From a virus (taxonomy: Duplodnaviria; Caudoviricetes), in the IMG/VR virus record IMGVR_UViG_3300031566_000035, positions 1 to 57,447 of that record: a DNA stretch of 57,447 nt. The stretch is one strand, 5' to 3'. Within the stretch, counting starts at the first letter, position 1. Each line of letters starts with the position of its first letter. The notes under the pieces were generated by a model. That model saw nothing but the letters and a program-made list of their open reading frames with translations. It searched no databases and had not been told where the DNA came from. Below are positions 16,843-40,924 of the stretch, one piece after another. A program made the position numbers and the translations under genes.

Positions 16843-17085
16843 ATGAAAAACACTAAATATACAAATACAGACTACGTGCAAATGTGTTATGACACGTTGT
16901 TAGCACCCGTTGTTTGGGGCGTTAATAAATTCGGACAAGAAGTAAAAGAACATGATAAGCTAAGTTGTGGCAATGGACACGATACTTGGTTTACTCACGT
17001 AATGTTTGACACACAAAGAAACTGTTGGCACAGGGAGCAAGACTATTACCACAGCCGAGTGGTTGGTTTTTACAATGGGTGCTAA
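16843..17085 (+). CDS. Cassette hypothetical protein
   Basis: Starts in attC loop, crosses GTT 16899, stops at TAAC. Confidence 0.7.
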   Translation: MKNTKYTNTDYVQMCYDTLLAPVVWGVNKFGQEVKEHDKLSCGNGHDTWFTHVMFDTQRNCWHREQDYYHSRVVGFYNGC

Positions 17086-17134
17086 CGGTTTGTGTTTGTG
17101 TAGTGCGTGAAATATGCACAAAATTTGATACGAG

Positions 17135-17335
17135 ATGAAAAAAACAATTTTATTTAACGACTTCTGTGCTAATAAAAAATGTGAAGAATATATTGCATGG
17201 AATTATGATGTCGAAGGTTGTCCAGTAGACTGTGAAAGTTGTAAACTGGTAGGACAAAGCCATGACATTACGGAATATCCTAAAAATTGTTTGTTTTTGA
17301 ATGACATACAAAAGTTTGAACGAGGCAGAAAGTAA
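17135..17335 (+). CDS. Cys-rich cassette protein inside an attC-like loop
   Basis: 66 aa with six Cys. Confidence 0.65.
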   Translation: MKKTILFNDFCANKKCEEYIAWNYDVEGCPVDCESCKLVGQSHDITEYPKNCLFLNDIQKFERGRK

Positions 17336-17476
17336 GCATGGAATTTACGCATTGTTAGCGTTATTGTGTTTTGCGAAACTATTTTGCTTCAACTTAGATT
17401 AAACTTTGTTGAGCAAAATATTAACGCTAACGGTTTAGGTATGGCATGTAATTTTACGAATTAAAAGAACGAAATA

Positions 17477-17719
17477 ATGGAAACAAAAGTATTAGAAATT
17501 ATTAAAGATGAAAGTGAAAAAGCAGATGTTAGAAAATACACCTGCATTAACGGATTTGGATATTCGCAGTTTGAACGCAATATAGCAGATAGGGTAGTAA
17601 AATTATTTGCTATACCACGTGTTACAAACTGGCGTTTTTGGTATGACAACCGAAACAACAGGATTGTAGGATTTATAGTTGGATTGATTACAGGCATGGC
17701 TATTTACGCTTGTTTGTAA
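17477..17719 (+). CDS. Cassette protein with C-terminal TM
   Basis: Crosses GTT 17621, stops at TAAC. Confidence 0.7.
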   Translation: METKVLEIIKDESEKADVRKYTCINGFGYSQFERNIADRVVKLFAIPRVTNWRFWYDNRNNRIVGFIVGLITGMAIYACL

Positions 17720-17868
17720 CGTTGACGCTATGAAAAGTAGCGGAAATCGAAGCACTTAACTATCAAATTACGATGAATTTAAATAAAATTATAAACCACC
17801 AAACAGCACCGACACCGCTATTTTTTATAGCATGTGTTATGCGCTGGGCGGTATAATAACAAATAATT

Positions 17869-18117
17869 ATGAAAAGTAATGATAAACCCGTAAACCCAAC
17901 TCCAATAGCTGGAGGTGATGAATCAGTAGTAAATATTCATTCAATGGCTAATAGTACAGGAATGACAGAAGGAATTACATTGCGTGAACATTTTGCATCA
18001 ATGGCTATGCAAGGATTATTAAGTCAACATAATCTAAAACAGCCTACTGACCAACAAATAATATGTCAACTTAGCGTTGAATTAGCCGATACGTTGCTTG
18101 ATGAACTCGCAAAGTAG
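17869..18117 (+). CDS. Conserved phage hypothetical protein (GxTLRExFA.MAMQG family)
   Basis: GITLREHFASMAMQGLL...ADTLL motif. Confidence 0.75.
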   Translation: MKSNDKPVNPTPIAGGDESVVNIHSMANSTGMTEGITLREHFASMAMQGLLSQHNLKQPTDQQIICQLSVELADTLLDELAK

Positions 18118-18238
18118 CCTTGCGCATAACGGTTTGGCTATGTTTTGAAGCCTAACCACAACCACAAATGATTGAATTTAGTATAAACTTGACAAAGGCT
18201 TTTAAATATAGCTTTTGTTATAAACTGAAAAAAAAATT

Positions 18239-18388
18239 ATGGCAACAACTATTTGGTTGATACTATCCTTGATTGAAAAAGAGCCGATACCTAACTTTTT
18301 GCAAAGCAATGGCAGTTGGGTTAGTTCGTGGATACCTGCATTATTGCTTGATTTATTCGTTATTTACATAATTTTTTATTGTTTATAA
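18239..18388 (+). CDS. 49-aa membrane peptide cassette
   Basis: MATTIWLILSLI...IYIIFYCL fills body 18217-18389 and stops at TAAC. Confidence 0.55.
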   Translation: MATTIWLILSLIEKEPIPNFLQSNGSWVSSWIPALLLDLFVIYIIFYCL

Positions 18389-18427
18389 CGAAAAAGTATA
18401 TGAACTGAAATTAAAATTTTTTGAGCG

Positions 18428-18640
18428 ATGGCAAGAACTAAAGGAAGCGGTTGGGGTGGTGGAACTATCCTATACCAAAAATGCCCTAAATGCGGCAAAA
18501 AGAAAGTAATGTATGATGGTGGTAGCGGAATAAGAGATTTAACCTCAATTCCGTTTAAATGCACCTCATGTAAGCATAGGTTTAATGACTCTGATTTGAT
18601 TAGAGAGCAATACGCAGCAAAAGCGGGTAGGCAATTTTAA
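18428..18640 (+). CDS. Zinc-ribbon protein inside an attC-like loop
   Basis: CPKCG and CTSCK pairs. Confidence 0.75.
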   Translation: MARTKGSGWGGGTILYQKCPKCGKKKVMYDGGSGIRDLTSIPFKCTSCKHRFNDSDLIREQYAAKAGRQF

Positions 18641-18820
18641 TTTTTGTTTATATACAGTGTTGTATTGAGCGCAGCGGCGTTTTAATGCAATACAACGTAT
18701 GGTAATATGAAAAGTTGGCTTTGTAGTCACTTTCAGTTTACCATCGCAGCTTGATAGCCAATTTTTTATATTACGTGTTATCGGCTGCCTTTTATTGTTA
18801 AATTATTAAATATCAAATAA

Positions 18821-19204
18821 ATGAAAAGAGAAATATTATTTAAAGGAAAATCGGTTAATACTGGCGAATGGGTTGAAAGTATGACTATTGCAAAAGGAAC
18901 TATTAAACGCAAAAAAGATGATGTGTTTATGGAGATTGGCGAAAATAAATGGATAGGTATTGAACCTAAATCATTAAGCCAATTTATAAACCAAAAGGAT
19001 AAAAACGGCAAAAAGATTTTTGAAGGCGATTATGATGCCGATGGTAATTGTGTTGTTTGGTGTGAAAACTGTAATGGTTTTGAATTTGCTGCTATAGATG
19101 TACCAACTAAAGATATTTGCATACCATGCCATAGATGCGATGGAAATTTCTTCTTTGGCGACCAAATAAACGACTTTGAGATTGTCGGAAATATTGCGGA
19201 CTAA
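18821..19204 (+). CDS. YopX family protein
   Basis: MKREILFKGK...DKNGKKIFEGD...EIVGNI. Confidence 0.85.
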   Translation: MKREILFKGKSVNTGEWVESMTIAKGTIKRKKDDVFMEIGENKWIGIEPKSLSQFINQKDKNGKKIFEGDYDADGNCVVWCENCNGFEFAAIDVPTKDICIPCHRCDGNFFFGDQINDFEIVGNIAD

Positions 19205-19299
19205 GGTTGCCGATAACGAATAGTGGTAAGCGGTCGTTTTAATGCCGTTTACCACGTGTTACCGGCTGACACGGATTATTAACCACTAAAGATTATTAA

Positions 19300-20139
19300 A
19301 TGAACGAATGTAGCAATAACAGTTTTTTGAGCGTTGGCAAAAACGGCTTTGCCGAACTTACACACGGCTCACTTTTTAGTGGCGTTGGCGGGTTTGAAGA
19401 AGGCTCTGAGCTGGCAGGAATAAAGACTATTTGGAATTGTGAACTTGAAAATTACCAAAGTAAAATATTAAAGCAAAATTACAATGAAAGCAAACAATAT
19501 AGAGATATTACAGAAGCCGAAATCAAAGAGCGAGTTAGCATCATTAGTGGAGGTTTTCCGTGCCAAGACATTAGCGTTGCGGGAAAAATGGAAGGTATCA
19601 CAGGTAAACGCTCTGGGCTTTGGAGTGAGATGTTTAGAATTATTAGGGACATTAGACCTTACTACGTCATCATTGAAAACTCGCCAGCTTTGCTTATTCG
19701 AGGATTTGAACAAGTCTTATGCGACCTTTCCAAAATCGGGTATAATGCAGAATGGCAAAGTATTTCAAACATCGCTTTTGGATACCCACACAAGAGAGAA
19801 AGATTATACGCTATTGCCTACGCCAACGAAATCGGATTACAAAGCGACATTTGCACAGGTGACGGCTTTAACTCGATATTTAGAAAGTGGACACCAAATC
19901 AGAATGATGGATATTCTTTGTCAAAAAGGATTCACGAAATCGGAGCGTGTGAAGATATTAGAAATGGTGATGGGTTTCAATCCTGGACACACAGAGTTGG
20001 AAGCATAGGAAATGCAGTAAACCCAACAGTTGCCTACTATTTATTTGAATGTATTAAGCATCATTTTTTAAAAAGGAGGGGAGAAAAAACTGTTATTGCG
20101 GACTTACAGCAGATAACTCGATTAAATGTATCGGCGTAG
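19300..20139 (+). CDS. C5 cytosine DNA methyltransferase, alpha chain
   Basis: LFSGVGG (I), GGFPCQD (IV), ENS (VI), HKRERLY (VIII), GNAV (X); motif IX not seen. Confidence 0.92.
   Translation: MNECSNNSFLSVGKNGFAELTHGSLFSGVGGFEEGSELAGIKTIWNCELENYQSKILKQNYNESKQYRDITEAEIKERVSIISGGFPCQDISVAGKMEGITGKRSGLWSEMFRIIRDIRPYYVIIENSPALLIRGFEQVLCDLSKIGYNAEWQSISNIAFGYPHKRERLYAIAYANEIGLQSDICTGDGFNSIFRKWTPNQNDGYSLSKRIHEIGACEDIRNGDGFQSWTHRVGSIGNAVNPTVAYYLFECIKHHFLKRRGEKTVIADLQQITRLNVSA
19484..20008 (+). CDS. Overlapping alternative-frame ORF, putative methyltransferase beta chain
   Basis: Nested in the +1 frame; LLPTPTKSD and terminal LEMVMGFNPGHT resembling motif IX; true start uncertain. Confidence 0.7.
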   Translation: MKANNIEILQKPKSKSELASLVEVFRAKTLALREKWKVSQVNALGFGVRCLELLGTLDLTTSSLKTRQLCLFEDLNKSYATFPKSGIMQNGKVFQTSLLDTHTREKDYTLLPTPTKSDYKATFAQVTALTRYLESGHQIRMMDILCQKGFTKSERVKILEMVMGFNPGHTELEA

Positions 20140-20239
20140 TGTTTGCTGGTAACGGTTTGGCTATGCACCGTATGAGGAACGAATATGGGGTATAGGTGTT
20201 GTTACCCACCTGTACCGATTTAATAACGAAAAACTTTAA

Positions 20240-20692
20240 TTGAAAATGAAAACTTTTGTCTTGACTGTTTCAAAGCAGTTTCCAAAAACACACGAAAAGG
20301 CTGGAAAATCAACTGGCTTTGTAGAAAATATCTCCCGACTATTTACTAATGATAGTGAGAAGATACATACTATTCGCTCAAATTATGACCTATGGCACAA
20401 ACGAGCAAAAGAAATAAACGAAGGAAAGGCTGTGTTGTCGATTAGATACTGGTTTGAAATGCCTTACCGTTCAAAGCAAGTTGAAATTTGCAGACTTGAA
20501 AGAGTTGGTGTTGAAAAACTTGAACAGCCTGACAACTTCGTATTTGCTCCAATTGAAGGGAAGCCGATTGATTGGGAATTAGTGGCAAAGAATGACGGTT
20601 TAAGTTTTGAGGACTTTTGCGAGTGGTTTAAGTCAAGACAAAAAGAACCTATGGCTGTTCTTCATTTTACCGACTTTAGGTATGGTGGGTAA
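20240..20692 (+). CDS. ASCH/PUA-like protein
   Basis: KIHTIR...W...PYRSKQ...AKNDGLSFEDF..WF; stops at TAAC. Confidence 0.65.
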   Translation: MKMKTFVLTVSKQFPKTHEKAGKSTGFVENISRLFTNDSEKIHTIRSNYDLWHKRAKEINEGKAVLSIRYWFEMPYRSKQVEICRLERVGVEKLEQPDNFVFAPIEGKPIDWELVAKNDGLSFEDFCEWFKSRQKEPMAVLHFTDFRYGG

Positions 20693-20874
20693 CGGTGGCA
20701 ATAAGAAACGAAAGGGATTGCGAGCCACGAACCTATCAAACCGTGAAAATTTGGCACGGATTACTGAACTTGATTAACCGATTAAACCCTTTTGTTTTTT
20801 ATTGCGTGTTATAAGCCGTATTTGTTTTATTATCAACCGAAAGTAAAATAATTTAAAAATAAATCACTTTTTAC

Positions 20875-20905
20875 TTGTATATATGATATATATTATATAT
20901 CTTTA
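20875..20905 (+). promoter_or_regulatory. Internal promoter/operator in cassette 20808-21257
   Basis: TTGTAT followed by near-palindromic ATATATGATATATTATATAT and TATCTTTA (near TAnnTTTG). Confidence 0.5.
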
Positions 20906-20938
20906 CTTCATAATTAATAACAAATAAAACATACAATT

Positions 20939-21103
20939 ATGAGTACAACAGAAGTAAGAGAACAATTAAAAGCAGAAGGAATTTCTGCAATTGTTAAATT
21001 GGTAGATAATAGATTTGAAATAAAAGTAAAAATGCAGGAAAACTTTACAAAAGTAGTAAGAATGTTTCCTTTGGCAAATGTAAGCCATACAACGATTAGA
21101 TAA
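20939..21103 (+). CDS. 54-aa hypothetical protein
   Basis: MSTTEVREQLKAEG...HTTIR; below the track cutoff. Confidence 0.65.
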   Translation: MSTTEVREQLKAEGISAIVKLVDNRFEIKVKMQENFTKVVRMFPLANVSHTTIR

Positions 21104-21244
21104 ATGAAAAAGATTATTGATATACCTGACGAAATAGTTAAAGACTTAAAGAAGTTAGCTATTGACCAAAATAAAGACCTAAAAAACTTTATTCAAGACG
21201 AACTAAAAAAACTTGTCGAGAACCCTCAATCGAAGCCGTCTTAA
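21104..21244 (+). CDS. Ribbon-helix-helix (CopG/Arc-like) regulator
   Basis: MKKIIDIPDEIVKDLKKLAIDQNKDLKNFIQDELKKLV; strand-helix-helix pattern. Confidence 0.75.
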   Translation: MKKIIDIPDEIVKDLKKLAIDQNKDLKNFIQDELKKLVENPQSKPS

Positions 21245-21399
21245 TATGGCTTATAACGTTGAGTATAAGAAACGTAGCGTTTTAAAACACTTAACTACAA
21301 TAACTTACAAAAGTGAAATTGAAATAGAAAATTTAATATTAACCACTGGTGCAGCTATGTTTTTTATACATTGTTACCACCAGTACATTAATTAACAGC

Positions 21400-21645
21400 A
21401 TGAAGAAATTTAATATAAACCACTATATGTACATTCAGATAACCGATACTGGATGGCAACACCTAAAGCAAACTGTGGGTGAAGATTACATTAAACATTG
21501 TATTGAACCTTATAAAACTGATGTAGATGGCAAAACTTGGTATAGATTACAAGCCCACAGTGTATTTGAACTACTGCCAATAAATTTCGGTGGACAAGTA
21601 GCCTACAACCCTAATGTAATGTTTGACGATAAAGACCTTACTTAG
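21400..21645 (+). CDS. Cassette hypothetical protein
   Basis: Fills body 21373-21658. Confidence 0.7.
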   Translation: MKKFNINHYMYIQITDTGWQHLKQTVGEDYIKHCIEPYKTDVDGKTWYRLQAHSVFELLPINFGGQVAYNPNVMFDDKDLT

Positions 21646-21702
21646 TATTGGTGGTAACGTTGAGTGTATGGTTTGATTTTTAACGATTTAAAAGAACGAA
21701 AT

Positions 21703-21954
21703 ATGAAAGATTTAGAACACTTACAAAGAATTATAAAAGAATTGCAAAATGATAAAGATAACGGAAAACTTGGTGATTACGCACAAGGTAGATTAGCTGC
21801 ATTTAAGATGTCAGAAAAATTAGTTAAAAATTTAACTATACATATTGTTAGCAATTCGGTTTGCTGCGATAACTGCCAACACCAAACACCAAGACATAGT
21901 ATTATGTGCAGTAGTTGCTTAGGGTTTAATCACTTTCAGCAAACTGATTGCTAA
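21703..21954 (+). CDS. Cassette protein with C-terminal zinc finger
   Basis: Crosses GTT 21847; CDNC and CSSC encoded in the body. Confidence 0.7.
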   Translation: MKDLEHLQRIIKELQNDKDNGKLGDYAQGRLAAFKMSEKLVKNLTIHIVSNSVCCDNCQHQTPRHSIMCSSCLGFNHFQQTDC

Positions 21955-22076
21955 TGTTTCGACTGTATGGCGTGAGCCTTGTACTTCACAAGGCGGAAAG
22001 CCATTCAATAGATGCTTACGCTATACAGTATGTTATGAGTAGTGACACAAGTTTTAACCTTAAAATAATTATAGAA

Positions 22077-22343
22077 ATGGAAAATGTAAAAGAATTAATT
22101 GAATTAAAAGCTATGATGATATTGGCTTGTAAACTAAATAAAGAGCAACTTATAATTGAACTTACAGACCTTGTAAATTCAATTAATTCAGCATCTATCG
22201 AAAGTCGAAACATTATGAGTAATGAGGCTCAAAAAGAGCTATTAATTGATGTGCTTAATGTTATTGAGCGTTACTATGATGTAGAATTTGGTAACATTGA
22301 TAATGCAGTAAGCTATATATTAGCTAAAATTAATAGTGATTGA
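22077..22343 (+). CDS. Cassette hypothetical protein
   Basis: Within body 22032-22371. Confidence 0.6.
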   Translation: MENVKELIELKAMMILACKLNKEQLIIELTDLVNSINSASIESRNIMSNEAQKELLIDVLNVIERYYDVEFGNIDNAVSYILAKINSD

Positions 22344-22428
22344 GCCGTCCACTTGTGGCATTACTCATAACGGTTTGGCTATGTTTTGAAAATATATTTT
22401 ACTAATTTTTAACTAAAATAAAAAGATA

Positions 22429-22857
22429 ATGAAAAGAGAAATTAAATTTAGAGTTTGGGAACAAAATAAAAAGAAAATGGTATATCCGATTGACACTTTA
22501 AAGGTGAGTAACGAGGAAGGATATTCACATTTAGAGCAATTTTTAGATCGTGGAGATTTAGTAATGGCAGACGATTATGATATTAAGCATTATAAAAAGT
22601 TACCATGTATTATGATGCAATACACTGGAATAAAAGATGTTGACGGCAAAGAAATTTACGAAGATGACATAATTAACGGTATGACCGTAACATACTGCGG
22701 AGATCAAAATGGCGGGCTTGGAATGGCTTGTGGTTGGTATTTACAGCAAGATGATTTTGAAAGATGGATAGAGTTAGAATCTAAATGTAATGCAAATGGA
22801 GATAACCATAAAATTGATGGGAATGTACATGAGAACCCTGAACTACTAAAAAGCTAA
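22429..22857 (+). CDS. YopX family protein inside an attC-like loop
   Basis: MKREIKFRVW...MQYTGIKDVDGKEIYEDD...GNVHENPELL. Confidence 0.9.
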   Translation: MKREIKFRVWEQNKKKMVYPIDTLKVSNEEGYSHLEQFLDRGDLVMADDYDIKHYKKLPCIMMQYTGIKDVDGKEIYEDDIINGMTVTYCGDQNGGLGMACGWYLQQDDFERWIELESKCNANGDNHKIDGNVHENPELLKS

Positions 22858-23098
22858 AAATATATTTATAAAATATTAGCTGTTGTTGTATTGCGCCATT
22901 AAGGCTTGTGCACATAGCATCCGTTACGCTAAGAACTGATTATTAATATGCAGATTATCAGCTTTAAACTGATACAGAGACTATGAAACATAAAAAACAT
23001 TATAGCGTAATGGAATACAATGGATGGCAATAAGAATAGTTGGCTCTCGAAATTTAGTACAGACTTTAATTTGAAATACAAATAAAAACAAAAAAGAG

Positions 23099-23422
23099 AT
23101 GGAAAAACATGATTTAAGAACACAAATTTGCATAGAAGTAGATGCAAAAAATATTGATGGTAAAACAGCGAGCAGATTACTACAAGCTATTAATAATACC
23201 GAAAATAAGCAAATAAGCAAATTACAACATTTCAAGGACACAACTGTTGGGCTATATGCTTTTGATTGTAACCCAGAAGATTTAATTATAAAATTTGTAA
23301 ATAGCCAAAGCGATGCTTGTAGTTTATTTACAGAAGATGTTGATAGACTTACTGAAGATTGGAAAACATTTTGTAATGATAAAAATATTGTAAAAAGTCC
23401 ATTTTTCAGAATTAGTGGGTAG
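23099..23422 (+). CDS. Hypothetical protein inside an attC-like loop
   Basis: 107 aa between arms at 23019 and 23494. Confidence 0.7.
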   Translation: MEKHDLRTQICIEVDAKNIDGKTASRLLQAINNTENKQISKLQHFKDTTVGLYAFDCNPEDLIIKFVNSQSDACSLFTEDVDRLTEDWKTFCNDKNIVKSPFFRISG

Positions 23423-23510
23423 GCTTTTGTTTTTATTCCACACAAACCTACTGCACTTGATTGAAAAACAAGCCAATTATTTTTATTGCGTGTTATAAAC
23501 TGTAAAAATT

Positions 23511-23702
23511 ATGAGCATATTATTAGACAAATTACTAAAAGAAGCAGACACCTCAACAACCACACAAGCAAAAGATTTGAAGTGGTATATCGCAAAACCA
23601 TTACCGTTTTATTCGTTGAAAACAAAACTTAAAAGGATAAAAGATGGATTAAGAGTTATGAACGGAAAATCTTTTGCGGTACATTATAAACAAGATGAAT
23701 AA
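23511..23702 (+). CDS. Cassette hypothetical protein
   Basis: Fills body 23492-23719. Confidence 0.7.
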   Translation: MSILLDKLLKEADTSTTTQAKDLKWYIAKPLPFYSLKTKLKRIKDGLRVMNGKSFAVHYKQDE

Positions 23703-23846
23703 TTTTTATTGTTTATAACGGCTGGCGGTATGGTTTAGTAAAGGCTGACCACTACCGACCAATCGAAGAACAAAACTTAATTCAGCCTTTATTAACTATA
23801 CCGCTTGTTAGGCTTTCGTGCTTTGCGGGCGGGAAACACAAAGATT

Positions 23847-24074: not shown

Positions 24075-24134
24075 CGGCAAATTGTAAGTTGTCGGGTGCT
24101 GTTGAAATACGCACAGAATTAAATTGAAAAATAA

Positions 24135-24470: not shown

Positions 24471-24534
24471 CGTTGAGCGTATGCGCCTGTTGGCGTGTTG
24501 ATTAGAATTACATAACTTTAAAAACAGATATAAG

Positions 24535-31965: not shown

Positions 31966-31993
31966 ACGGCATATAAAATACTGGCAAGAAACG

Positions 31994-34080: not shown

Positions 34081-34268
34081 TGGCATACATATACTACAAT
34101 AAAGAATTAAACCAATACAGATTGTTTGGAAGCCTTCCTGTAATGTGTAAGACTTGCGAATTAGATTACACGCATTTACAATACGCATTTAGAAATAATA
34201 AAACGGAATACGAAAACGACACTTTAAAGATTATTAAGGTTACGCTTGAAAGGGGTGGAAAAAAATAA
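34080..34268 (+). CDS. Small putative HTH regulator
   Basis: FGSLPVMC...LDYTHLQYAF helix pattern; translationally coupled. Confidence 0.6.
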   Translation: MAYIYYNKELNQYRLFGSLPVMCKTCELDYTHLQYAFRNNKTEYENDTLKIIKVTLERGGKK

Positions 34269-34474
34269 ATAGTTACGTGTAGATAAAAACAGGTTTTAGA
34301 ATTAAGCACGAACCTAAGTACTTGCAGGTACGAAAAAGTATATGATTTCGAGCCGATAAATGGCACGAAACTACAATAACAGAATAAAGTAAATTAATAT
34401 TATAAACTAAGAAGATAGCACCAACACGGCTTGAATTATATACGGTGTTGTGCATCTTTTAAAAATGCGGAATT

Positions 34475-34789
34475 ATGCAAGGAAAATACCTTATAAACAC
34501 AGATGAATGGTTTGTTGCACCAAATGGTAATAGCTACAAAGCAGCGTGGGGAAATGTTGAAATAATAGAAGACACTTCTTTAGGACTAAAAACTAACAGA
34601 AATAGTACAAATTGGTATGCTAGAGTGGGGAGCGAGGACAACCACATAATAATAGCAGGTTGCCAAATACACTACGCTGTTAGATGCGAGAATAAACCTA
34701 ATACAGAACCGAGCGAAGAATGGCAAGCAGATGCAGCCAATGGGCTAAAAGAATATAAAGCACCTGCCCGAATATATATAGCTGAGTAG
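34475..34789 (+). CDS. Cassette hypothetical protein
   Basis: Fills body 34447-34809. Confidence 0.75.
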   Translation: MQGKYLINTDEWFVAPNGNSYKAAWGNVEIIEDTSLGLKTNRNSTNWYARVGSEDNHIIIAGCQIHYAVRCENKPNTEPSEEWQADAANGLKEYKAPARIYIAE

Positions 34790-34956
34790 CATTTTTTATT
34801 GTGCACAACAACGCTAAGCTGAAATTCGTTTCAATGAATTTTAGCGACCGTTATCAATCGTATGACGGAGGCTGAGCTTGTCGAAGCCGAGTAATATGAT
34901 TGACAGGACAGACAAAAAGTTTTTAAATGCAGATTTTTATATAAATTTAAAAAAAA

Positions 34957-35142
34957 ATGAAAATAAACATAACTTGTTCATGTGGAAGGGTATTCGATGT
35001 TATAGGTAATGGGATCAGGTTCATTCATCATGGAAAAGAAAACAAAATAATGTTAAAAGATGAAATAATACGTTGCAAATGCGGATCGGATAACCTTAAT
35101 TTTACGAGTAATTTAAAAATAAAAAAATCGGATTACCCATAA
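34957..35142 (+). CDS. Zinc-ribbon protein
   Basis: CSCG and CKCG. Confidence 0.6.
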   Translation: MKINITCSCGRVFDVIGNGIRFIHHGKENKIMLKDEIIRCKCGSDNLNFTSNLKIKKSDYP

Positions 35143-35245
35143 GTAAAGAGCTTTATTTATTTTGATTTTGATTAAATATTTATTATATTTGTATCTTGTT
35201 TCATGTTTATATATTTAGATTAGATGTTTGGTTAGTAAATTGGTT

Positions 35246-35276
35246 AAAAAGGGCTATTTCTCGATAGCCTTTTTTT
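35246..35276 (+). terminator. Intrinsic terminator-like hairpin
   Basis: AAAAAGGGCTAT-ttctcg-ATAGCCTTTTTTT. Confidence 0.7.
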
Positions 35277-35317
35277 ATTATACAAAACCCGATCCTGATC
35301 TTATAAGAAAATAAATT

Positions 35318-35572
35318 ATGGTTATATCACACATACCGCTAAAGCTAATATTAGTTGAAGACCCAAAGGTTGGAGGTTACACATCTTTTTTTGCGCAATT
35401 CCCAGAAATTTTGGCTCAGGGTGAAACAGAAGATGAGGCAACTGAAAATTTGTTTAAAACGGTTAGTATTGTTTTTAAACACAAGGGTGGTATTGGACAT
35501 GGTGTTAAGAAGAGTGAATATAATGTTATAGAAAAAGACATAAATCTTGACACCTGTGAATGTCGGAAATAA
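35318..35572 (+). CDS. HicB-like antitoxin domain protein
   Basis: EDPKVGGYTSFFAQFPEILAQGETEDEA..NL. Confidence 0.8.
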   Translation: MVISHIPLKLILVEDPKVGGYTSFFAQFPEILAQGETEDEATENLFKTVSIVFKHKGGIGHGVKKSEYNVIEKDINLDTCECRK

Positions 35573-35768
35573 TCCTTTAATTACAAGTCATGGTTTACAC
35601 GAATGGATTTTAAATGCGTTAATATCGACTTTATTTACCTAAAACAAAATAGAACGAATATAAACAATATACATAAATACCTGAAATAAAATATAATAAA
35701 AGGAATAAAAATAAAAAATAAAATATTTAGAATATTTTTATTATCTTAGCATTATAAAATCTCCGAAC

Positions 35769-36251
35769 ATGATAAAAATATTAAAAAACGAAAAAACAGA
35801 AAATGGTAATTTTTTTATATTTTTCAATACCGAAACAAAGGAAAAGGCAAGGATAAAAACAGACAATACATCTGTATTGGCGTTATGCGAACTAATAAAC
35901 GGGGAGCGGATAAATTTAAAACAGGCAGAATGCTTTAATCTTTTGGATTATAAAAGCATCTTATTAGAGAAAAAAGAGACACGTGTACAGTCGGACGTAA
36001 TGGACATATCATATTTATTGGTGAGTATAAACGGGAAAGATTACCTTAAAATCTTCCATAAAGGACAGGATATGCTTTCTTTCAGCTCCGCACCGATCAA
36101 AAACATAAAATCCTTTATGGCTTATACGGAAAAAAAACTACAAGATGTCGAATGGGGCTTGATTGATGAGCGATCCGCTATTATAGAATCATCGGAATCC
36201 ATCCTTTCTGGAATAAGAAAAGCCAATGGTTTTTATTCAATAAAAAAATAA
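35769..36251 (+). CDS. Hypothetical protein
   Basis: 160 aa ORF. Confidence 0.65.
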   Translation: MIKILKNEKTENGNFFIFFNTETKEKARIKTDNTSVLALCELINGERINLKQAECFNLLDYKSILLEKKETRVQSDVMDISYLLVSINGKDYLKIFHKGQDMLSFSSAPIKNIKSFMAYTEKKLQDVEWGLIDERSAIIESSESILSGIRKANGFYSIKK

Positions 36252-36604
36252 TTTATTTATATCCGTATTTATTATTTATAACTGCATTTACCTTTTATTT
36301 ATAGTGCCATTTATGCTTTATTTATGGCGCCATTTATCGTTTATTTATGGTTGCATTTATATATGGCGCATTAGCCCAATATAGATATATAGACACAGCG
36401 CATATGTATTAATATATATAAGAACCTTTAATTGCTATAAATAATGTACATATGTTATAATGCTTCAACTATTTGTAATTAATATAAACAACATATATAA
36501 AATATTGATAATGAAATAATTTGAAATGAAGCTTAAAAAAACGCTTGACAAATTTCTTAATTTGCTGTAGATTAGCAGAAAATTATTAACCAAAAACTTG
36601 CAAA

Positions 36605-36910
36605 ATGAAAACGATTAAATCAAACAAATTAAATTTAAAAACCATGAAAAACTTGAAAAATGCAATTACAGACAATCTAATTAATTATTATGCGAATTCA
36701 ATTAATTTATTCGATTTTGTCGAAAATAATATTTCGCCATTCATTGAAATTTCTGAAGAATCAAAAGAAACAATACGATTGATAATATCGCAAAGCCAAA
36801 GAGGGTGGTATGCAATTGAATGCGATGAGGAAGGGCCCACAAAAGAACAGGACGAAGAAATGGACGCCTATATAGAATCGGTAACGGCCGAAATTTTAAA
36901 TTCACTATAA
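36605..36910 (+). CDS. Acidic putative early protein
   Basis: After TTGACA at 36545; acidic C-terminus. Confidence 0.65.
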   Translation: MKTIKSNKLNLKTMKNLKNAITDNLINYYANSINLFDFVENNISPFIEISEESKETIRLIISQSQRGWYAIECDEEGPTKEQDEEMDAYIESVTAEILNSL

Positions 36911-36921
36911 AAAATAAAACC

Positions 36922-37173
36922 ATGAAATTCACAAAAGATCACTACAAGTTAATCAAGGACAGGTTTATAAATCTTGGAATTGATGCAATTATAGAACACC
37001 AAGCATATTGCTTGCTCAATAATTATTCAAAAACAAGATTTGTGTGGGGGGTTTATTGGGAAGCCGAGGATGAAAATTCAAGGTTGGATACATCCAATTA
37101 TTCGGACATACACATCGAAACGGCCATAACAACGGCAATAAAAGAACTATTAAAAGATAAATACCTTTATTAA
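36922..37173 (+). CDS. Hypothetical early protein
   Basis: 83 aa with AAAACCATG leader. Confidence 0.7.
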   Translation: MKFTKDHYKLIKDRFINLGIDAIIEHQAYCLLNNYSKTRFVWGVYWEAEDENSRLDTSNYSDIHIETAITTAIKELLKDKYLY

Positions 37174-37241
37174 ATCGCTTTAACACCCCTGCCCCACGGG
37201 CAGTATTTCAAACAAAAATCAATTAAAATAAACATAACATC

Positions 37242-37466
37242 ATGAAAACATCGATAAAAGAAGTATTTGAAAGCGGAAGTTGGATGATCCAACGAATCCA
37301 TCAAGGAACAAGCAACAAGACAAGGCGCATTGATGCAAAGCGAAGATTCCCAGAAGCTGATGGAAAGAATTCATTTTCAGAATGGTGCAGCACTGCATAC
37401 GCCGATAGGTTGGCGAGAGAACATTATGGGAAAAATACCAATGATTTTATGTGTTTTTGCTATTAA
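37242..37466 (+). CDS. Hypothetical early protein
   Basis: 74 aa ORF. Confidence 0.7.
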   Translation: MKTSIKEVFESGSWMIQRIHQGTSNKTRRIDAKRRFPEADGKNSFSEWCSTAYADRLAREHYGKNTNDFMCFCY

Positions 37467-37486
37467 ATAATTTAAAAACTTGCAAA

Positions 37487-37693
37487 ATGAAAAAACTAAC
37501 AAAAAAAGAATTAGCGGAATGGTATGTTAGCGCTCATTCCGACTGCGGACACGTATTATATTTTTCAGGGGATCCCCGTTCAGCGGTAACCGAAGATTAT
37601 TTTTTTAAACACCTGATGAAAAAAAGGAGAGGGGAATTGGTCGAATTGATCTATAACCATTCAGACGAGGGTAGGGCGTTTTTAAACAAATAA
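37487..37693 (+). CDS. Hypothetical early protein
   Basis: Leader AAAAACTTGCAAAATG is shared with ORF 36605. Confidence 0.65.
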   Translation: MKKLTKKELAEWYVSAHSDCGHVLYFSGDPRSAVTEDYFFKHLMKKRRGELVELIYNHSDEGRAFLNK

Positions 37694-37761
37694 TCAAAAA
37701 AAATGAAAGAAATTTCAACAAATAATTAGGATTTTAAACAAATATTAAATAACTTAGCATT

Positions 37762-38541
37762 ATGGAAACCAAAGTATTACATAATAAATTCAAATATATA
37801 TTGGAAGGATTGGCCCCTGCCGGAAAGGAAGAGGAAGGGCATCTGTACATTGAAGTTGACGGGCTTACATATGACGTTACAGCGAAGCCCGACATATACC
37901 ATGTAATGGCGTACGATAGGCCAAGGAATACAATAACGGTGGATACATGGCTGCCCGTGTTCCCCGGGTTTTACGGGACTATTTTCGATCACGGCGAAGC
38001 CATCGACATTGAACGCGAAAACATTGAACAGGACAGAAAGGATAAAGGGTTATCACCACCGCTCACACAAAAAGAAATCGAAAGCATTGACTTCGATATA
38101 AATTCAAGGATGAATGACATTGCAGCGAAATGTTGTGGAATAATGGAAATGGAACTATCAGGCTTCGTACACTCAATAGAATTCCAGGGAGTCCATAGCC
38201 CACGCTCCTACAACTTCACGAACGATCAGATCAATTGCCGTATCACGTTCGACATGCAGGCGGCCAGGAAATACATAACGGATGACATTGAAGCATTCAA
38301 GGCCCACCTAAAGGAACGGTACACATCAAGGGATGGGTTTATCCCATTGCAATCAAGCGACGCAAAAGATTGGCAATTCTACGATGTGCTAAGGGACGAA
38401 CACAAAGCGGGCGAAGTACTCCAGTTTATCTGCAACCAACAGGGCATAACAGATGAAGACCTGCAAGAGGCCTCAATGATGTACATCAGCGCCAATAACT
38501 ACGATTACGAGAAGCACGAGATAATCATTAACAACAAGTGA
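37762..38541 (+). CDS. Acidic conserved phage hypothetical protein
   Basis: FPGFY, SPRSYNFTND, YTSRDGF motifs; visibly higher GC than flanks. Confidence 0.75.
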   Translation: METKVLHNKFKYILEGLAPAGKEEEGHLYIEVDGLTYDVTAKPDIYHVMAYDRPRNTITVDTWLPVFPGFYGTIFDHGEAIDIERENIEQDRKDKGLSPPLTQKEIESIDFDINSRMNDIAAKCCGIMEMELSGFVHSIEFQGVHSPRSYNFTNDQINCRITFDMQAARKYITDDIEAFKAHLKERYTSRDGFIPLQSSDAKDWQFYDVLRDEHKAGEVLQFICNQQGITDEDLQEASMMYISANNYDYEKHEIIINNK

Positions 38542-38561
38542 ATATGTAAGCTAAACAATTT

Positions 38562-38596
38562 AAAACCCCTCTCAATAACAACAGAGGGGTTTTTTT
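38562..38596 (+). terminator. Intrinsic terminator
   Basis: AAAACCCCTCT...AGAGGGGTTTTTTT. Confidence 0.8.
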
Positions 38597-38971
38597 ATGC
38601 AATAACACACCAAACCAATACAAAAGAAGCATACTTACAGTAAAGCCCTGTCTATACTATCCGGATCAAAACAAACCAAACTATCCAAAGGCTAAAACAA
38701 ACCCAAAGAAGATCAAAGCAAACCCCATAACTTGTGGAATAAAGGGTTAATGGGCAATTGTCTTTTTTAAATCCTTTTCATGTGCGCAAGAATAACGCCC
38801 TGTAATGAACGATAACACACTTATAGTATCCATACATAGGATAATATTAAAGACCTGTTAGGTGCGCTTATATGAAGCTATATGGGTAGATTATCAGGGG
38901 GGCTGTTGAATGGTTAAAGGCAGACTTATTACTATCATTATAACTTATTGATTAATAGTGCATTAACACCT

Positions 38972-38999
38972 ACTTAACATAATGGTAATTATAGGACAA
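38972..38999 (-). other. dif-like XerCD recombination site
   Basis: Minus strand TTGTCCTATAA-TTACCA-TTATGTTAAGT, 11-6-11 layout with near-canonical XerD arm, in a long non-coding region. Confidence 0.8.
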
Positions 39000-39484
39000 A
39001 TAAATAAATATAATATACTGACACAGTGATGGTTATAAATACGTCATAAATCTTTAACATCTTTTTTGCGTTTTCGTTTTGCCCGATAGGGCCTTTTCCC
39101 TCCTATAATTACCAAACACAAAACCTAAAATAACTTTTTGGATTCGTTATAAATTACGGATATAGTTGTATATGTTACAAAAATGTAGTATTATTGCCGA
39201 TAGAACACAACAAAGATGTAGTATTGATAATTTTAAGGGGTCATTCCGCCTTGATGATGACATTAATTTTTATTGTTGGTAATGGAAAAGAATATGAATA
39301 ATAAGGGAGTAAGGCACGGGTAAGAGTCCCGTAGAAATAGGTGAAGTGTCGATAGGGCAATCAGCCAACTGCAATCCTACCCTTATTATTTATTGTTGTA
39401 TGTCTTTTTAAATTGTAGATAACGCACCGTGCGCGGAGTGAAACGGGATACAATGCGGACTGTTGATTAAAATTACAAAAGGCG

Positions 39485-39799
39485 ATGGACAAGGAAAGTA
39501 GATACGAATTACAAAAAATTGACTGCAACTGTAACGATTGCTTTTTTATGGTTAGGGATTTTGATACTTATAAAAAATGGGGATCATTTCACATGGATTT
39601 GCAATTAAAAGAATTTGAACATAAAAAAGAGAACGGAGAAATAAGACCTAATGCGCAATTTCAATTTGATAAAAGCACTTTACTTCAATATGGGAAATGC
39701 TCAAAATTAGGCAAAGGCATTTCGTTTATACCTAACGTATGTCAAATTGAGACTCAAGAGTGCTTCAAACATAGGCGAGTGCGTTTTAATGCATTTTAA
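39485..39799 (+). CDS. Cys-rich hypothetical protein
   Basis: DCNCNDC...C...C...CF. Confidence 0.7.
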   Translation: MDKESRYELQKIDCNCNDCFFMVRDFDTYKKWGSFHMDLQLKEFEHKKENGEIRPNAQFQFDKSTLLQYGKCSKLGKGISFIPNVCQIETQECFKHRRVRFNAF

Positions 39800-39829
39800 A
39801 CATTGTTGTAAATCTTTTAAATACGGAAT

Positions 39830-40066
39830 ATGGAACACGAACTTAAAATACTCCCACAATACTTCGAGGAAGTGTGGAGCGAAAACAAAACCTTTGAACT
39901 AAGAGAGGATGACAGAGATTATAAAATAGGTGATACTTTGAGACTACTTGAATTTGACTACGGAACTTATACAGGTAGAGAATGCAACCGAACAATATTA
40001 TACATACTTAGAGATGCTGACCAATACGGACTGAAAGAAGGTTTTGTGATACTAGCAATGAAGTAG
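39830..40066 (+). CDS. ASCH/DUF3850 family protein
   Basis: HELKILPQYF...KTFELR.DDRDYKIGD.L.L.E. Confidence 0.85.
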   Translation: MEHELKILPQYFEEVWSENKTFELREDDRDYKIGDTLRLLEFDYGTYTGRECNRTILYILRDADQYGLKEGFVILAMK

Positions 40067-40203
40067 TATTTTATTGTTTACAACGTTGAATGCAAGGTGT
40101 CGTGGCTGCCTGATAAAAGCTACATAGTTATAAATTTAAACAAATATTGATATGAAAAACGAAACTTTAAAACCCCAACAGCCATGCACTATATAACATA
40201 GTT

Positions 40204-40485
40204 ATGGGTAGTACTTATAGAATGCCAGAAAGTTTCTCTGAATATGAAGGCGAAGAGATTATGTCAAACTTTGACGGGCGTGTAGTAGAAGAAAGTGCAA
40301 AAGCAATTAAAGGTAAGGAATTATTTAGTAGGTATGCTGGTTGGAACTTTAACGGAAAAGTTTGGTGGCAGAATGATAAATGGTTATGTGAAGTGTGGTG
40401 TTATAGAAGCTGGAGAGAAACTTTCGTTTGTGAAACGCCAAAAGAATTAATGGAAGAGATAAGCTCTGAATATGGGTACGAATAG
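40204..40485 (+). CDS. Cassette hypothetical protein
   Basis: Fills body 40201-40498. Confidence 0.7.
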   Translation: MGSTYRMPESFSEYEGEEIMSNFDGRVVEESAKAIKGKELFSRYAGWNFNGKVWWQNDKWLCEVWCYRSWRETFVCETPKELMEEISSEYGYE

Positions 40486-40576
40486 TATTACCCATAACGG
40501 ACAGCGGTATGATTCGTTTGCTCCTCGAATCACCACGAAATTAGGAGCGTAGTATTAACTTAACAATTTACGAGCG

Positions 40577-40924
40577 ATGGATTTTGGATATGCTATACAG
40601 ATTTTAAGAGAAAAATTAGTTGATGATAGTTATGAACTTACATTAGCTGTTGAACAAAAAGATGAAGAAGTGCAGGAACGGCAAAAAGAACGCTTAGCTA
40701 TATTGCAGGATGCGATGAATGCGTTGGCTAAACCTTCGAGCATACCACAAGCAAATGAATTATTACCGCATGTTAGCGGTAGTAATAATTTTAAGAAGAT
40801 ACTTAAAAAAGCTAACAGTGAAATATGGCACCTAACTAATGATGAAATAAGAAGTTGGGAAAAAGATGGAAGTATAGAACGTGGTGATATTTTGTACAAA
40901 GTTGTAACAGATACACTGTACTAA
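40577..40924 (+). CDS. Cassette hypothetical protein
   Basis: Crosses GTT 40772 (LLPHVSGS). Confidence 0.7.
   Translation: MDFGYAIQILREKLVDDSYELTLAVEQKDEEVQERQKERLAILQDAMNALAKPSSIPQANELLPHVSGSNNFKKILKKANSEIWHLTNDEIRSWEKDGSIERGDILYKVVTDTLY

What the first reader, a model, noticed from the sequence alone, without database searches (positions are those of the whole stretch)
16843..40924. Recombination-site arms are translated: ORFs start in the attC loop and read through GTT
Seen: ORFs at 16843, 17477, 21703, 24135, 24535, 24811, 25701, 28638 and 40577 (and remnants 15976, 41408) start inside the hairpin and cross the right arm. This gives a recurring linker in unrelated proteins: VLPCVSGS, AIPRVTNW, TIHIVSNS, NLQNVIDR, PVQIVSDS, NLPVVSGS, IIHLVSQQ, LLPHVSGS (GTT read as Val), or CYDTLL, AYDALL, LYTLL in a second frame. 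Inference: the site doubles as coding sequence and supplies the translation start, and exchange at the arm could recombine N- and C-terminal modules into new proteins.
Basis: partly seen in the sequence, partly recalled or inferred. Interest (0 to 1): 0.85.

Follow-up and report, generated by a model that had tools for sequence, protein, structure and literature searches.

The report
Translated hairpin joints shuffle phage protein modules
In this uncultured flavobacterial-type phage, small early genes are joined by attC-like hairpins that are themselves translated, and comparison with other phages shows that N- and C-terminal protein pieces have been swapped exactly at those hairpins.

Summary
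The window is a siphophage record. Its early region (16.8-41.7 kb) holds 18 imperfect TAAC...GTTA hairpins on the + strand, 0 on the - strand, against about 1.7 in shuffles. The arms covary. In 9 of 18 hairpins an ATG in the loop opens a frame that runs through the 3' arm and GTT for 32-62 more codons.

The proposed test was run. Homologues of the two halves of ORF 28638 form disjoint sets, 7 and 11 proteins with none shared. All 4 homologues of the ORF 40577 N-half (89-91% identical) carry a different C-half after ...LLPHV. Its C-half sits behind unrelated N-parts in 16 of 16 representatives.

The "attC" label holds for architecture only. No tyrosine recombinase was found in the window or in 5 array-bearing phage records. 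No integron integrase was found in 301 Flavobacteriaceae genomes. G.T wobbles favour the sense strand, not the bottom strand. Small attC clusters in phages, PeSL shuffling and attI1 ORF-11 are known. In-frame module shuffling at a translated hairpin is a new variant. The exchange mechanism is unresolved.

The parts
16783..41738 (+). Array of gene modules joined by TAAC...GTTA hairpin joints, in the early/replication region of the phage
16783..16902 (+). Hairpin joint, 120 nt. The loop holds the start of ORF 16843.
16843..17085 (+). ORF, 80 aa. 18 codons lie in the loop. It crosses the core in the TTG-TTA frame (CYDTLL) and stops in the next TAAC. A TTG at 16897 is an alternative start.
17083..17357 (+). 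Hairpin joint, 275 nt, with an atypical 14-nt 5' spacer. It encloses the whole ORF 17135-17335 (66 aa).
17428..17624 (+). Hairpin joint, 197 nt
17477..17719 (+). ORF, 80 aa. 48 codons lie in the loop, followed by AIPRV|TNW and a 32-codon hydrophobic tail. No alternative start lies after GTT.
17717..17839 (+). Hairpin joint, 123 nt. The next gene (17869) starts after GTTA.
18127..18220 (+). Hairpin joint, 94 nt. Similar copies occur in 4 other viral contigs.
19214..19261 (+). Mini hairpin joint, 48 nt, upstream of the C5 methylase cassette (19300-20139). Its apical 18 nt are identical to a site in Polaribacter phage P12002L.
20150..20204 (+). Mini hairpin joint, 55 nt
20690..20811 (+). Hairpin joint, 122 nt
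21254..21376 (+). Hairpin joint, 123 nt. The first ATG of the crossing frame (21400) lies after GTTA.
21655..21850 (+). Hairpin joint, 196 nt
21703..21954 (+). ORF, 83 aa. 48 codons lie in the loop, followed by TIHIV|SNS and a Cys-rich C module.
23716..23810 (+). Hairpin joint, 95 nt
24072..24345 (+). Hairpin joint, 274 nt
24135..24470 (+). ORF, 111 aa. 69 codons lie in the loop, followed by NLQNV|IDR.
24468..24594 (+). Hairpin joint, 127 nt
24535..24762 (+). ORF, 75 aa. 18 codons lie in the loop. It uses the TTG-TTA frame (AYDALL). A TTG at 24589 is an alternative start.
24760..24961 (+). Hairpin joint, 202 nt
24811..25104 (+). ORF, 97 aa. 49 codons lie in the loop, followed by PVQIV|SDS and a zinc-ribbon-like C module (weak Pfam hits below cut-off).
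25643..25764 (+). Hairpin joint, 122 nt, with left core CAAC. It is 91.5% identical from left arm to GTT to a joint in an otherwise unrelated phage (L049), while both flanks differ.
25701..25913 (+). ORF, 70 aa. 20 codons lie in the loop, followed by NLPVV|SGS.
25911..25929 (+). Minimal 19-nt palindromic copy of the joint (TAAC-TATG-TTA-TATA-GTTA) inside a 57-nt repeat. The identical copy is at 29004-29022.
   Evidence: family D3
28590..28884 (+). Hairpin joint, 295 nt
28638..29006 (+). ORF, 122 aa. The N module (81 aa) is in the loop, followed by IIHLV|SQQ and a 41-aa C module. The two halves have disjoint sets of homologues.
40495..40775 (+). Hairpin joint, 281 nt
40577..40924 (+). ORF, 115 aa. 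The model shows an N helix (residues 3-51), a disordered linker (57-68) that spans LLPHV|SGS, and a small beta-beta-alpha-beta C module.
40935..41298 (+). Hairpin joint, 364 nt
15976..16257 (+). ORF, 93 aa, with a right-arm motif (VLPCV|SGS, GTTA at 16033). No paired left arm was found.
41408..41623 (+). ORF, 71 aa, crossing two right-arm motifs (GTTA at 41485 and 41597). From 41597 on, the next module is 85% identical to a module in L032, and the identity ends one base before the left core.

Best explanation
The early region is a chain of exchangeable gene modules joined by attC-like hairpin joints.

Anatomy of a joint:
- An invariant TAAC on the left and GTTA on the right.
- A conserved G.T next to the core.
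- An unpaired spacer that is about 2 nt longer on the 5' side.
- A 15-20 bp stem whose sequence differs from joint to joint but stays complementary.
- A loop of 3 to about 300 nt.
- The 12 nt after each GTTA pair with the 12 nt before the NEXT TAAC, so both kinds of segment, loops and bodies, are closed by their own inverted repeats.

In half of the joints the loop carries an A-rich leader, an ATG and an N-terminal protein module of 18-81 codons. The frame runs through the 3' arm and GTT, which become a flexible linker (..I/L-P/H-x-V-S..), into the next body. It usually ends at the TAA of the next TAAC.

Shown here: the structure, the coding character, and repeated exchange of N and C modules exactly at GTT (and of bodies at the left core) among otherwise unrelated phages.

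Inferred:
- The pairing is read in the sense strand.
- The joints are transcribed structural punctuation of the early operon.
- Their short conserved cores act as hot spots for recombination between co-infecting phages (relaxed homologous recombination or copy choice, as with PeSLs of T4-type phages), not through an integron integrase.
- The fixed frame across GTT makes most exchanges yield in-frame two-module proteins.
For: Structure:
- 18 hairpins on + against 0 on -, and 1.65 in shuffles.
- RNAalifold on 48 joints of the 113-128 nt class gives 13 pairs, 11 of them with compensatory changes.
- The outer flank pairs with the next TAAC at 10 or more of 12 positions in 43 of 108 cases, against 5 of 213 for the joint's own TAAC and 3 of 213 at random. 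In the window 17 consecutive bodies are so flanked, among 26 pairs listed.

Sense strand:
- Stem mismatches are G.T-type on the sense strand 329 times against 28 A.C-type (both locus orientations summed). In the outer stems the counts are 129 against 10.
- Folded as RNA, the joint is the minimum-energy fold in 10 of 10, with mean z about -2.6.
- Folded as top-strand DNA, it is the minimum-energy fold in 6 of 10 by my reading, with mean z about -1.65.
- The bottom strand gives mean z about -1.1.

Coding. Across the window and 118 other loci, 55 of 70 crossing ORFs read GTT as Val, 14 use the TTG-TTA frame and 1 uses the third frame.

Exchange.

Linker: residues 57-68 of ORF 40577 have pLDDT below 50, between two better-modelled modules.

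No dedicated enzyme:
- PF00589 has 0 hits in the window and in 5 array-bearing records, 4 of them at least 98% complete.
- PF00239 has 0 of 5. Y1 transposase has 1 of 5.
- No protein family is shared by all 5 phages in BLASTP.
- The integron-integrase model is above cut-off in 0 of 301 genomes of the family of a Flavobacteriaceae MAG, while the same model scored 395 bits in a Lysobacterales MAG.

Precedent: PeSL-mediated shuffling (PMC2839356, abstract read).
Against: - No RNA data exist for this phage, so neither transcription of the joints nor translation from the loop ATGs is shown.
- An RNA role does not by itself explain the invariant AAC/GTT cores, which are the same triplets as in attC. 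It also does not explain why each body should be closed by its own helix. Both follow naturally from an integron-type excision and insertion cycle.
- Break points are precise to within a base or two of the cores even between modules 85-93% identical. That looks site-specific.
- A site of the same family in Polaribacter phage P12002L lies in the region where Qi et al. 2023 predicted attC sites, one of which IntI1 recombined in E. coli.
- The 118 comparison loci were picked with a 16-mer of the left arm, so they are a biased sample.
Confidence: 0.45

Rival explanations
1. This is a dedicated hairpin-directed site-specific recombination system, integron-like but without IntI. A host or unrecognised phage enzyme, for example a Xer-type or other tyrosine recombinase, recognises the folded sense-strand DNA and exchanges strands at the TAAC/GTTA cores. 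Modules move as cassettes.
For: - The architecture is attC-like: conserved AAC/GTT, an unpaired spacer, extra bases on the 5' arm, and a variable stem and loop.
- The integron signature is present. The bases after GTTA pair with the flank of the next TAAC, as expected if both ends of a cassette form one long stem in an excised circle.
- Break points lie at the cores.
- Joints about 91% identical are shared by phages that share almost no proteins.
- Generic tyrosine recombinases are abundant in the sampled Flavobacteriaceae, with 300 of 301 genomes giving sub-cut-off matches.
Against: - No candidate enzyme is conserved among the phages.
- Both the left and the right cores are break points. Neither GTTA-to-GTTA nor TAAC-to-TAAC units were seen as shared blocks: 0 and 0, against 36 left-to-right and 9 right-to-left blocks.
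- The many G.T pairs make the stems weak as DNA.
- The hairpin pattern is almost absent from 185,579 species genomes. It gave 4 hits, all on low-GC MAG contigs.
Confidence: 0.3
2. These are true integron attC sites, a CALIN, recombined by an integron integrase supplied in trans, on the bottom strand as in bacterial integrons.
For: - CALINs with 2 or more attC sites are reported in 17 phages, including Polaribacter phage P12002L. Five of six tested phage sites were recombined by IntI1 (PMC9892861, section 3.4 and passages read).
- The window joint 19214-19261 is of the same family as a P12002L site lying between two methyltransferase genes.
- The window also has a methylase cassette.
Against: - There is no IntI in the window, in 5 array-bearing phage records, or in 301 sampled genomes of the Flavobacteriaceae family.
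- Wobble bias and folding favour the top strand, not the bottom strand.
- Eight of the 18 hairpins are 196-364 nt long.
- I could not see the supplement that gives the P12002L attC coordinates, so the identity of the homologous site with a tested one is not established.
Confidence: 0.07
3. These are selfish palindromic mini-elements (MITE- or RPE-like) that spread among phages. They carry a stop and an outward-reading start, so that insertion is tolerated.
For: - The hairpins fall into discrete size classes: about 46-60, 85-93, 113-128, 184-207 and about 285 nt.
- Left-to-right units are the commonest shared block between unrelated contigs, 36 of 373 classified blocks.
- Similarity of the window to other contigs is concentrated in the hairpins.
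Against: - Bodies are flanked by their own inverted repeats and are exchanged as units too.
- Only two clean indels were found among related contigs. One removes a whole left-core-to-left-core gene unit. The other lies between 17-nt leader repeats, not at a hairpin.
- No transposase is common to the phages.
- The loop modules are diverse real protein domains, not one repeated sequence.
Confidence: 0.08
4. The crossing ORFs are annotation artefacts. Translation starts only downstream of GTT and the loop frames are open by chance.
For: - Two of the nine ORFs have a TTG at the core that could serve as a start.
- There are no expression data.
Against: - Four of the nine have no start codon near or after GTT.
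- The loop parts score as coding in frame.
- The loop modules are conserved as proteins down to 44% identity and also occur free-standing.
- The frame across GTT is non-random, 55/14/1.
Confidence: 0.03

Closest known systems
Integron attC sites and clusters of attC sites lacking an integrase (CALINs), including those reported in phages (Qi et al. 2023, PMC9892861; section 3.4 and passages read)
   Same: - Imperfect hairpins with conserved AAC...GTT cores, an unpaired spacer, and a variable stem and loop.
- The stop codon of the upstream gene often lies in the left core.
- The bases after GTT pair with the next site's left flank.
- Cassettes include DNA methylases.
- One window joint is homologous to a site in Polaribacter phage P12002L.
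   Different: - No integrase in the phages or in the sampled host family.
- Pairing is selected on the sense strand.
- Loops reach about 300 nt and hold translation starts and protein domains.
- Both cores are break points.
- The arrays hold 9-36 sites rather than 2-4.
- The pattern is nearly absent from bacterial genomes.
attI1 ORF-11/ORF-18 and short ORFs inside attC (review PMC8876359, sections 3.1-3.2 read)
   Same: - An ORF starts inside the recombination site and runs across the crossover point into the next cassette.
- It serves expression of cassettes that lack their own initiation region.
   Different: There the peptides are short, non-functional helpers of translational coupling. Here the frame continues into the next module and makes a two-domain protein, and the loop part can be an 81-aa domain.
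PeSLs, promoter-early stem-loops of T4-type phages (Arbiol et al. 2010, PMC2839356, abstract read; PMC4122927, listing only)
   Same: Short conserved stem-loop cassettes between small non-essential phage genes, at which recombination shuffles gene modules.
   Different: PeSLs are intergenic promoter-terminator units. The joints here lie inside reading frames, have covarying rather than conserved stems, and shuffle parts of proteins. Promoter or terminator activity was not tested here.
pdif modules of Acinetobacter plasmids, the R64 shufflon, and C-terminal swapping in polymorphic toxins (all recalled, no call)
   Same: - Modules are bounded by alternately inverted sites (pdif).
- A recombination site inside an ORF selects among C-terminal segments (shufflon).
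- A conserved motif marks the joint of constant and variable parts (toxins).
   Different: Those use double-stranded sites with known or presumed recombinases, or plain homologous recombination. None has a covarying hairpin that encloses the start of the gene.
Rickettsia palindromic elements (recalled, no call)
   Same: Palindromic repeats that are translated as part of proteins.
   Different: RPEs are insertions of one repeated sequence inside genes. Here the hairpin arms flank diverse modules and mark exchange points.

Membership tests
Integron attC site / CALIN | Inverse cores with conserved AAC (R'') and GTT (R') | tested here: met
   TAAC and GTTA were required by the finder. The flanking profile and the alignment show further conservation (G after TAAC 0.81, T before GTTA 0.88).
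Integron attC site / CALIN | Full 7-nt consensus RYYYAAC / GTTRRRY (the review, gives GTTRRRY) | tested here: inconclusive
   After GTTA the next base is G 0.45 / T 0.36 and the following one is C 0.43. Common forms are GTTAGC, GTTATG and GTTACC, which fit only in part.
Integron attC site / CALIN | Imperfect hairpin with an unpaired central spacer and extra bases on one arm, conserved in structure rather than sequence (definition recalled) | tested here: met
   The commonest spacer offsets are 4 nt on the 5' side and 2 nt on the 3' side in duplex folds. 11 of 13 stem pairs show compensatory changes.
Integron attC site / CALIN | The bases after the G|TT crossover belong to the next cassette and pair with that cassette's own R'' | tested here: met
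   10 or more of 12 positions paired with the next TAAC flank in 43 of 108 cases, against 5 of 213 for the joint's own flank and 3 of 213 at random. 17 consecutive cases occur in the window.
Integron attC site / CALIN | Length about 57-141 nt (recalled) | tested here: not met
   8 of the 18 window hairpins are 196-364 nt, and 2 are 48 and 55 nt.
Integron attC site / CALIN | The bottom strand is the folded, recombined strand (review passage; Qi et al.) | tested here: not met
   Sense-strand G.T against A.C is 329 to 28 in the inner stems and 129 to 10 in the outer stems. The bottom-strand DNA fold is the weakest.
Integron (complete) | An integron integrase (IntI) with attI next to the array, or available in the cell | tested here: not met
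   PF00589 has no hit in the window (64% complete) or in 5 array-bearing records, 4 of them at least 98% complete. TIGR02249 is above cut-off in 0 of 301 Flavobacteriaceae-family genomes, with a positive control of 395 bits in another MAG.
Integron attC site / CALIN | Recombined by IntI in an attC x attI assay | not testable with these tools
   Reported for 5 of 6 phage sites by Qi et al.. Whether the P12002L site homologous to window 19214-19261 was among them is not known, because the supplements are closed.
PeSL-type mobile regulatory cassette | Strong promoter plus terminator stem-loop | not tested
   No promoter or terminator scan was run. No T-run follows the stems in the sequences read.
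PeSL-type mobile regulatory cassette | Recombination between copies shuffles neighbouring modules | tested here: met
MITE / palindromic repeat element | Terminal inverted repeats with a target-site duplication and empty sites in relatives | tested here: inconclusive
   Inverted ends are present. Only 2 clean indels were found, and neither is a simple hairpin insertion. Target duplications were not searched systematically.

The most novel reading that the evidence does not exclude
A widespread exon-shuffling-like system in phages that needs no integrase. Structured joints with a fixed reading frame let any loop-encoded N-module be fused in frame to any body-encoded C-module. A dedicated, still unknown single-strand recombination activity at the TAAC/GTTA cores moves these half-genes among unrelated flavobacterial-type phages. 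Protein domains, not genes, would be the cassettes.
Probability: 0.3. Interest if true: 0.9.

Novelty: new variant of a known kind. Interest (0 to 1): 0.8.

Why it matters
Phage mosaicism is usually described gene by gene. Here the unit of exchange is half a gene, and the joint is a conserved, structured and translated sequence that keeps the reading frame. That would be a built-in way to make new two-domain proteins in the fast-evolving early (host-takeover or anti-defence) region.

It also extends the recent finding of attC-like sites in phages in three ways: to large arrays, to hosts in which no integron integrase was found, and to the sense strand. This bears on the open questions of where attC sites and cassettes come from and whether such hairpins first served RNA-level roles.

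The arrays are common in uncultured viral contigs (more than 118 records hit by one 16-mer), so the question can be tested once a cultured example is found.

Tried and rejected
Tried without useful result:
- Close relatives were sought through the DnaB-like helicase. IMG/VR gave only 4 loci at 26-36% identity, so no genome-wide indel comparison with a near relative was possible.
- Polaribacter phage Freya_1 (strains vary in length) lacks the motif, with only chance-like matches.
- blastn of joint 18100-18245 against 50,697 phage records gave no match.
- Sequencing runs: no RNA holder was listed. Contigs of four DNA runs laid at 85% likeness gave many joints between repeat copies that I could not interpret as rearrangements. 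I draw nothing from them.
- Pfam on the nine crossing ORFs and the loop ORF gave nothing above cut-off.
- The fold of ORF 40577 had no match at E <= 0.001 among viral predicted structures.
- An inversion system (shufflon or inverton) was rejected. All ORFs and all hairpin asymmetries share one polarity.
- Translational bypass or shunting across the hairpin was rejected. Take-off and landing codons are complementary, not identical, and the loops hold real coding modules.
- RNase III-type processing was considered but not tested.
- Literature searches found no report of ORFs that start in an attC loop and fuse to the next cassette. That rests on those four searches only.

Closed or unused tools:
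- Supplements of PMC9892861 were not opened (closed). They may hold the P12002L attC coordinates.

Full report
**What the window is.** It is a 57,447-base IMG/VR virus record, estimated 64% complete. It encodes a large terminase, a gp3-like packaging protein, a portal, a capsid protein and a tape measure. The only DNA-level relatives among 50,697 phage records are the capsid genes of Polaribacter phages, at about 70% identity. The region 16-42 kb has 29-36% G+C. It carries small + strand genes of the early/replication type: HNH endonuclease, two YopX proteins, a C5 DNA methylase, NinG, a radical-SAM-like protein and a DnaB-like helicase.

The repeated sequence has two halves. The left half has consensus ..AATTGnGnC-TAAC-GgTTtG-nnTATG... 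The right half has consensus ..TATAnnnnnT-GTTA-Gnnnn.. and is an imperfect inverted copy of the left.

A finder for TAAC...GTTA pairs (40-450 nt apart) with complementary arms and a longer 5' spacer gives 18 sites on the + strand and none on the - strand. Sixteen of them lie in 16,783-41,298. Twenty block shuffles give 0-6, mean 1.65.

The arms differ from site to site but remain complementary, even when 200-364 nt apart. In an alignment of 48 sites of the 113-128 nt class (5 from the window, 43 from other contigs), RNAalifold finds 13 pairs, 11 with compensatory double changes and one a conserved G.U.

I examined 18 window hairpins: the 16 finder hits in the array plus two added by eye and checked. 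Nine have a loop ATG whose frame crosses GTT and continues for 32-62 codons. Seven of the nine read GTT as Val and two read TTG-TTA. Four of the nine have no other start codon near or after GTT. The remaining nine hairpins behave like ordinary cassette boundaries, for example the YopX and methylase genes, or enclose a complete small ORF (17135-17335).

**A wider family.** These contigs have low G+C and show the two halves on one strand.

In these loci I found 186 oriented hairpins in discrete size classes:
- Of 135 hairpins up to 140 nt, 35 have a loop-ATG ORF crossing GTT.
- Of 51 longer hairpins, 33 do.
- The loop parts are typically 14-25 codons in the ~120-nt class and 43-51 codons in the ~190-nt class.

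Over the window and these loci, 55 of 70 crossing ORFs read GTT as Val, 14 use the TTG-TTA frame and 1 uses the third frame. This sample is biased, because every locus was chosen for that 16-mer.

Five phages with arrays of 9-36 hairpins share no protein family present in all five. A hairpin-specific pattern matches 9 of the 118 viral loci but only 4 contigs among 185,579 species genomes. All four are low-G+C MAG contigs of 2-39 kb.

**Are the loop parts coding?** A codon model trained on 16 long genes of the window favours the read frame of the nine loop parts over both shifted frames, by +91.7 and +94.5 nats (416 codons). Eight of the nine are positive in both comparisons.

The 81-aa loop part of ORF 28638 has 11 homologues at 44-89% identity with conserved motifs. 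Eight of them are 77-89 aa proteins that end near the position of the right arm. So the loop can hold a complete small domain that also exists on its own.

- ORF 28638. Its C part (residues 82-122) finds 7 other proteins at 82-93% identity. Its N part finds 11 others. No protein is in both lists. The 7 carry seven unrelated N parts of about 40-90 aa. In five the joint reads ..V-(S/R)-(Q/K)-Q.., and in the other two the Val is not kept.
- ORF 40577, N part. It finds 4 other proteins at 89-91% identity. All 4 have a different sequence after ..LLPHV or ..LSPLV.
- ORF 40577, C part. It finds 16 cluster representatives. In all 16 it is C-terminal, behind N parts of 18-91 aa. By my reading of the sequences and the alignment, these N parts are unrelated to each other and to the window's.

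At DNA level there are three more cases.
- Window 25631-25772 is 91.5% identical to a joint in L049, from the left arm to GTT including 24 codons, while both flanks differ.
- L042 and L098 share a 193-nt joint at 91% identity, with different C parts.
- The body starting at window 41597 is 85% identical to one in L032. The identity begins at GTTA and ends one base before the left core.

Among local pairs of crossing ORFs, 7 share only N, 5 share only C and 9 share both. Five of those 9 are identical copies.

The AlphaFold model of ORF 40577 has mean pLDDT 72.7 and pTM 0.33. It shows a helix at residues 3-51, a low-confidence stretch at 57-68 that spans the joint, and a small beta-beta-alpha-beta module.

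**Integron-like features.** The 12 nt after each GTTA pair with the 12 nt before the next TAAC: 10 or more of 12 positions in 43 of 108 cases, against 5 of 213 with the joint's own TAAC and 3 of 213 at random. In the window 17 consecutive bodies are so flanked. This is the pattern integron arrays show because the crossover lies in G|TT.

Qi et al. 2023 reported 17 attC clusters without an integrase in phages, among them Polaribacter phage P12002L. They showed that IntI1 recombines 5 of 6 tested phage sites. P12002L has one site of our kind, between two methylase genes, whose apical 18 nt are identical to window 19214-19261 with compensating stem changes. I could not check whether it is one of their tested sites.

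**Features that do not fit an integron.**
- There is no tyrosine recombinase in the window or in 5 array-bearing records, 4 of them at least 98% complete. There is no serine recombinase in 5 of 5. A Y1 transposase occurs in 1 of 5 only.
- The integron-integrase model is above its cut-off in 0 of 301 genomes of the family of a Flavobacteriaceae MAG, although it scored 395 bits in a Lysobacterales MAG. The host is inferred, not known.
- Stem mismatches are overwhelmingly G.T on the sense strand: 329 against 28 in the inner stems and 129 against 10 in the outer stems.
- Ten window joints fold into the hairpin as RNA in 10 of 10 (z from -0.19 to -4.96). As top-strand DNA they do so in 6 of 10 by my reading (z from +0.22 to -4.11). 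They fold worst as bottom-strand DNA.
- Both cores are break points. Shared blocks between contigs run left core to right core (36) or right core to left core (9). None runs GTTA to GTTA or TAAC to TAAC.

**How it most likely works.**

Shown:
- structured joints with covarying stems, of one polarity;
- reading frames that cross them in a fixed frame;
- repeated exchange of the parts on either side.

Inferred:
- The pairing matters in a sense-strand molecule. I put about 55% on the transcript and 45% on displaced sense-strand DNA.
- The conserved cores are where recombination between co-infecting phages resolves, without an integron integrase.

The review read says that attC hairpins in mRNA block ribosomes and that short ORFs in attC or attI1 (ORF-11, ORF-18) relieve this. 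Placing the initiation region in the loop would have the same effect here. That link is my inference.

The main rival is a dedicated single-strand recombinase acting at the cores. It explains the invariant AAC/GTT and the flank signature better, but it has no candidate enzyme.

**Novelty and verdict.** attC-like clusters in phages, PeSL-type shuffling and ORFs across the attI1 crossover are in print. Large sense-strand arrays whose loops hold gene starts and whole domains, and which shuffle protein halves in frame, were not found in four literature searches. I rate this a new variant of a known kind, with high interest.

Noticed in passing
window 29090-29128 and 29411-29438 (inside ORF 29056-29778, just upstream of the DnaB-like helicase gene): Iteron-like direct and inverted repeats of about 11 nt (AAGGGGCTTAYAAGG type). 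The bin 29008-29674 has by far the highest contig depth in all four metagenome runs laid. This may be a replication origin inside an initiator gene.
   Followed up: no
window 36252-36344: Four to five tandem copies of a roughly 23-nt unit (TTTATTTAT..CATTTAT..) downstream of ORF 35769-36251. Role unknown.
   Followed up: no
window 25909-25965 and 29002-29058: Two 100% identical 57-nt copies: a minimal 19-nt palindromic joint plus an A/T-rich leader that ends in the ATG of the next gene. A related copy lies at 20885-20941.
   Followed up: partly
window 16199-16259 and 22884-22944: A 61-nt direct repeat, 92% identical. The first copy is the 3' end of ORF 15976. The second looks like a stranded gene end.
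   Followed up: no
G001 (93 kb virus record): L146, L147, L148: Three IS200/IS605-type Y1 transposase genes (two at E about 1e-34) in a phage that also has 36 hairpin joints. None was found in the other four phages searched.
   Followed up: no
L102:7400-7948 versus L041:480-800: A 256-nt gene-unit indel between near-identical contigs, bounded by 17-nt direct repeats of a conserved gene-start leader rather than by hairpins. This shows short-repeat recombination at work in these phages.
   Followed up: partly
window 42169-43906 (- strand): The large terminase and gp3-like small terminase genes lie on the opposite strand, between the array and the + strand structural genes. The last array module ends exactly where its left core would be (41818).
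   Followed up: partly
proteins P0002 and P0005: Their N parts end like the loop modules of window ORFs 24135 (..STCNLQNV) and 40577 (..PQANELLPHV) but are fused to the C module of window ORF 28638. So modules present in this one window occur elsewhere in other combinations.
   Followed up: partly
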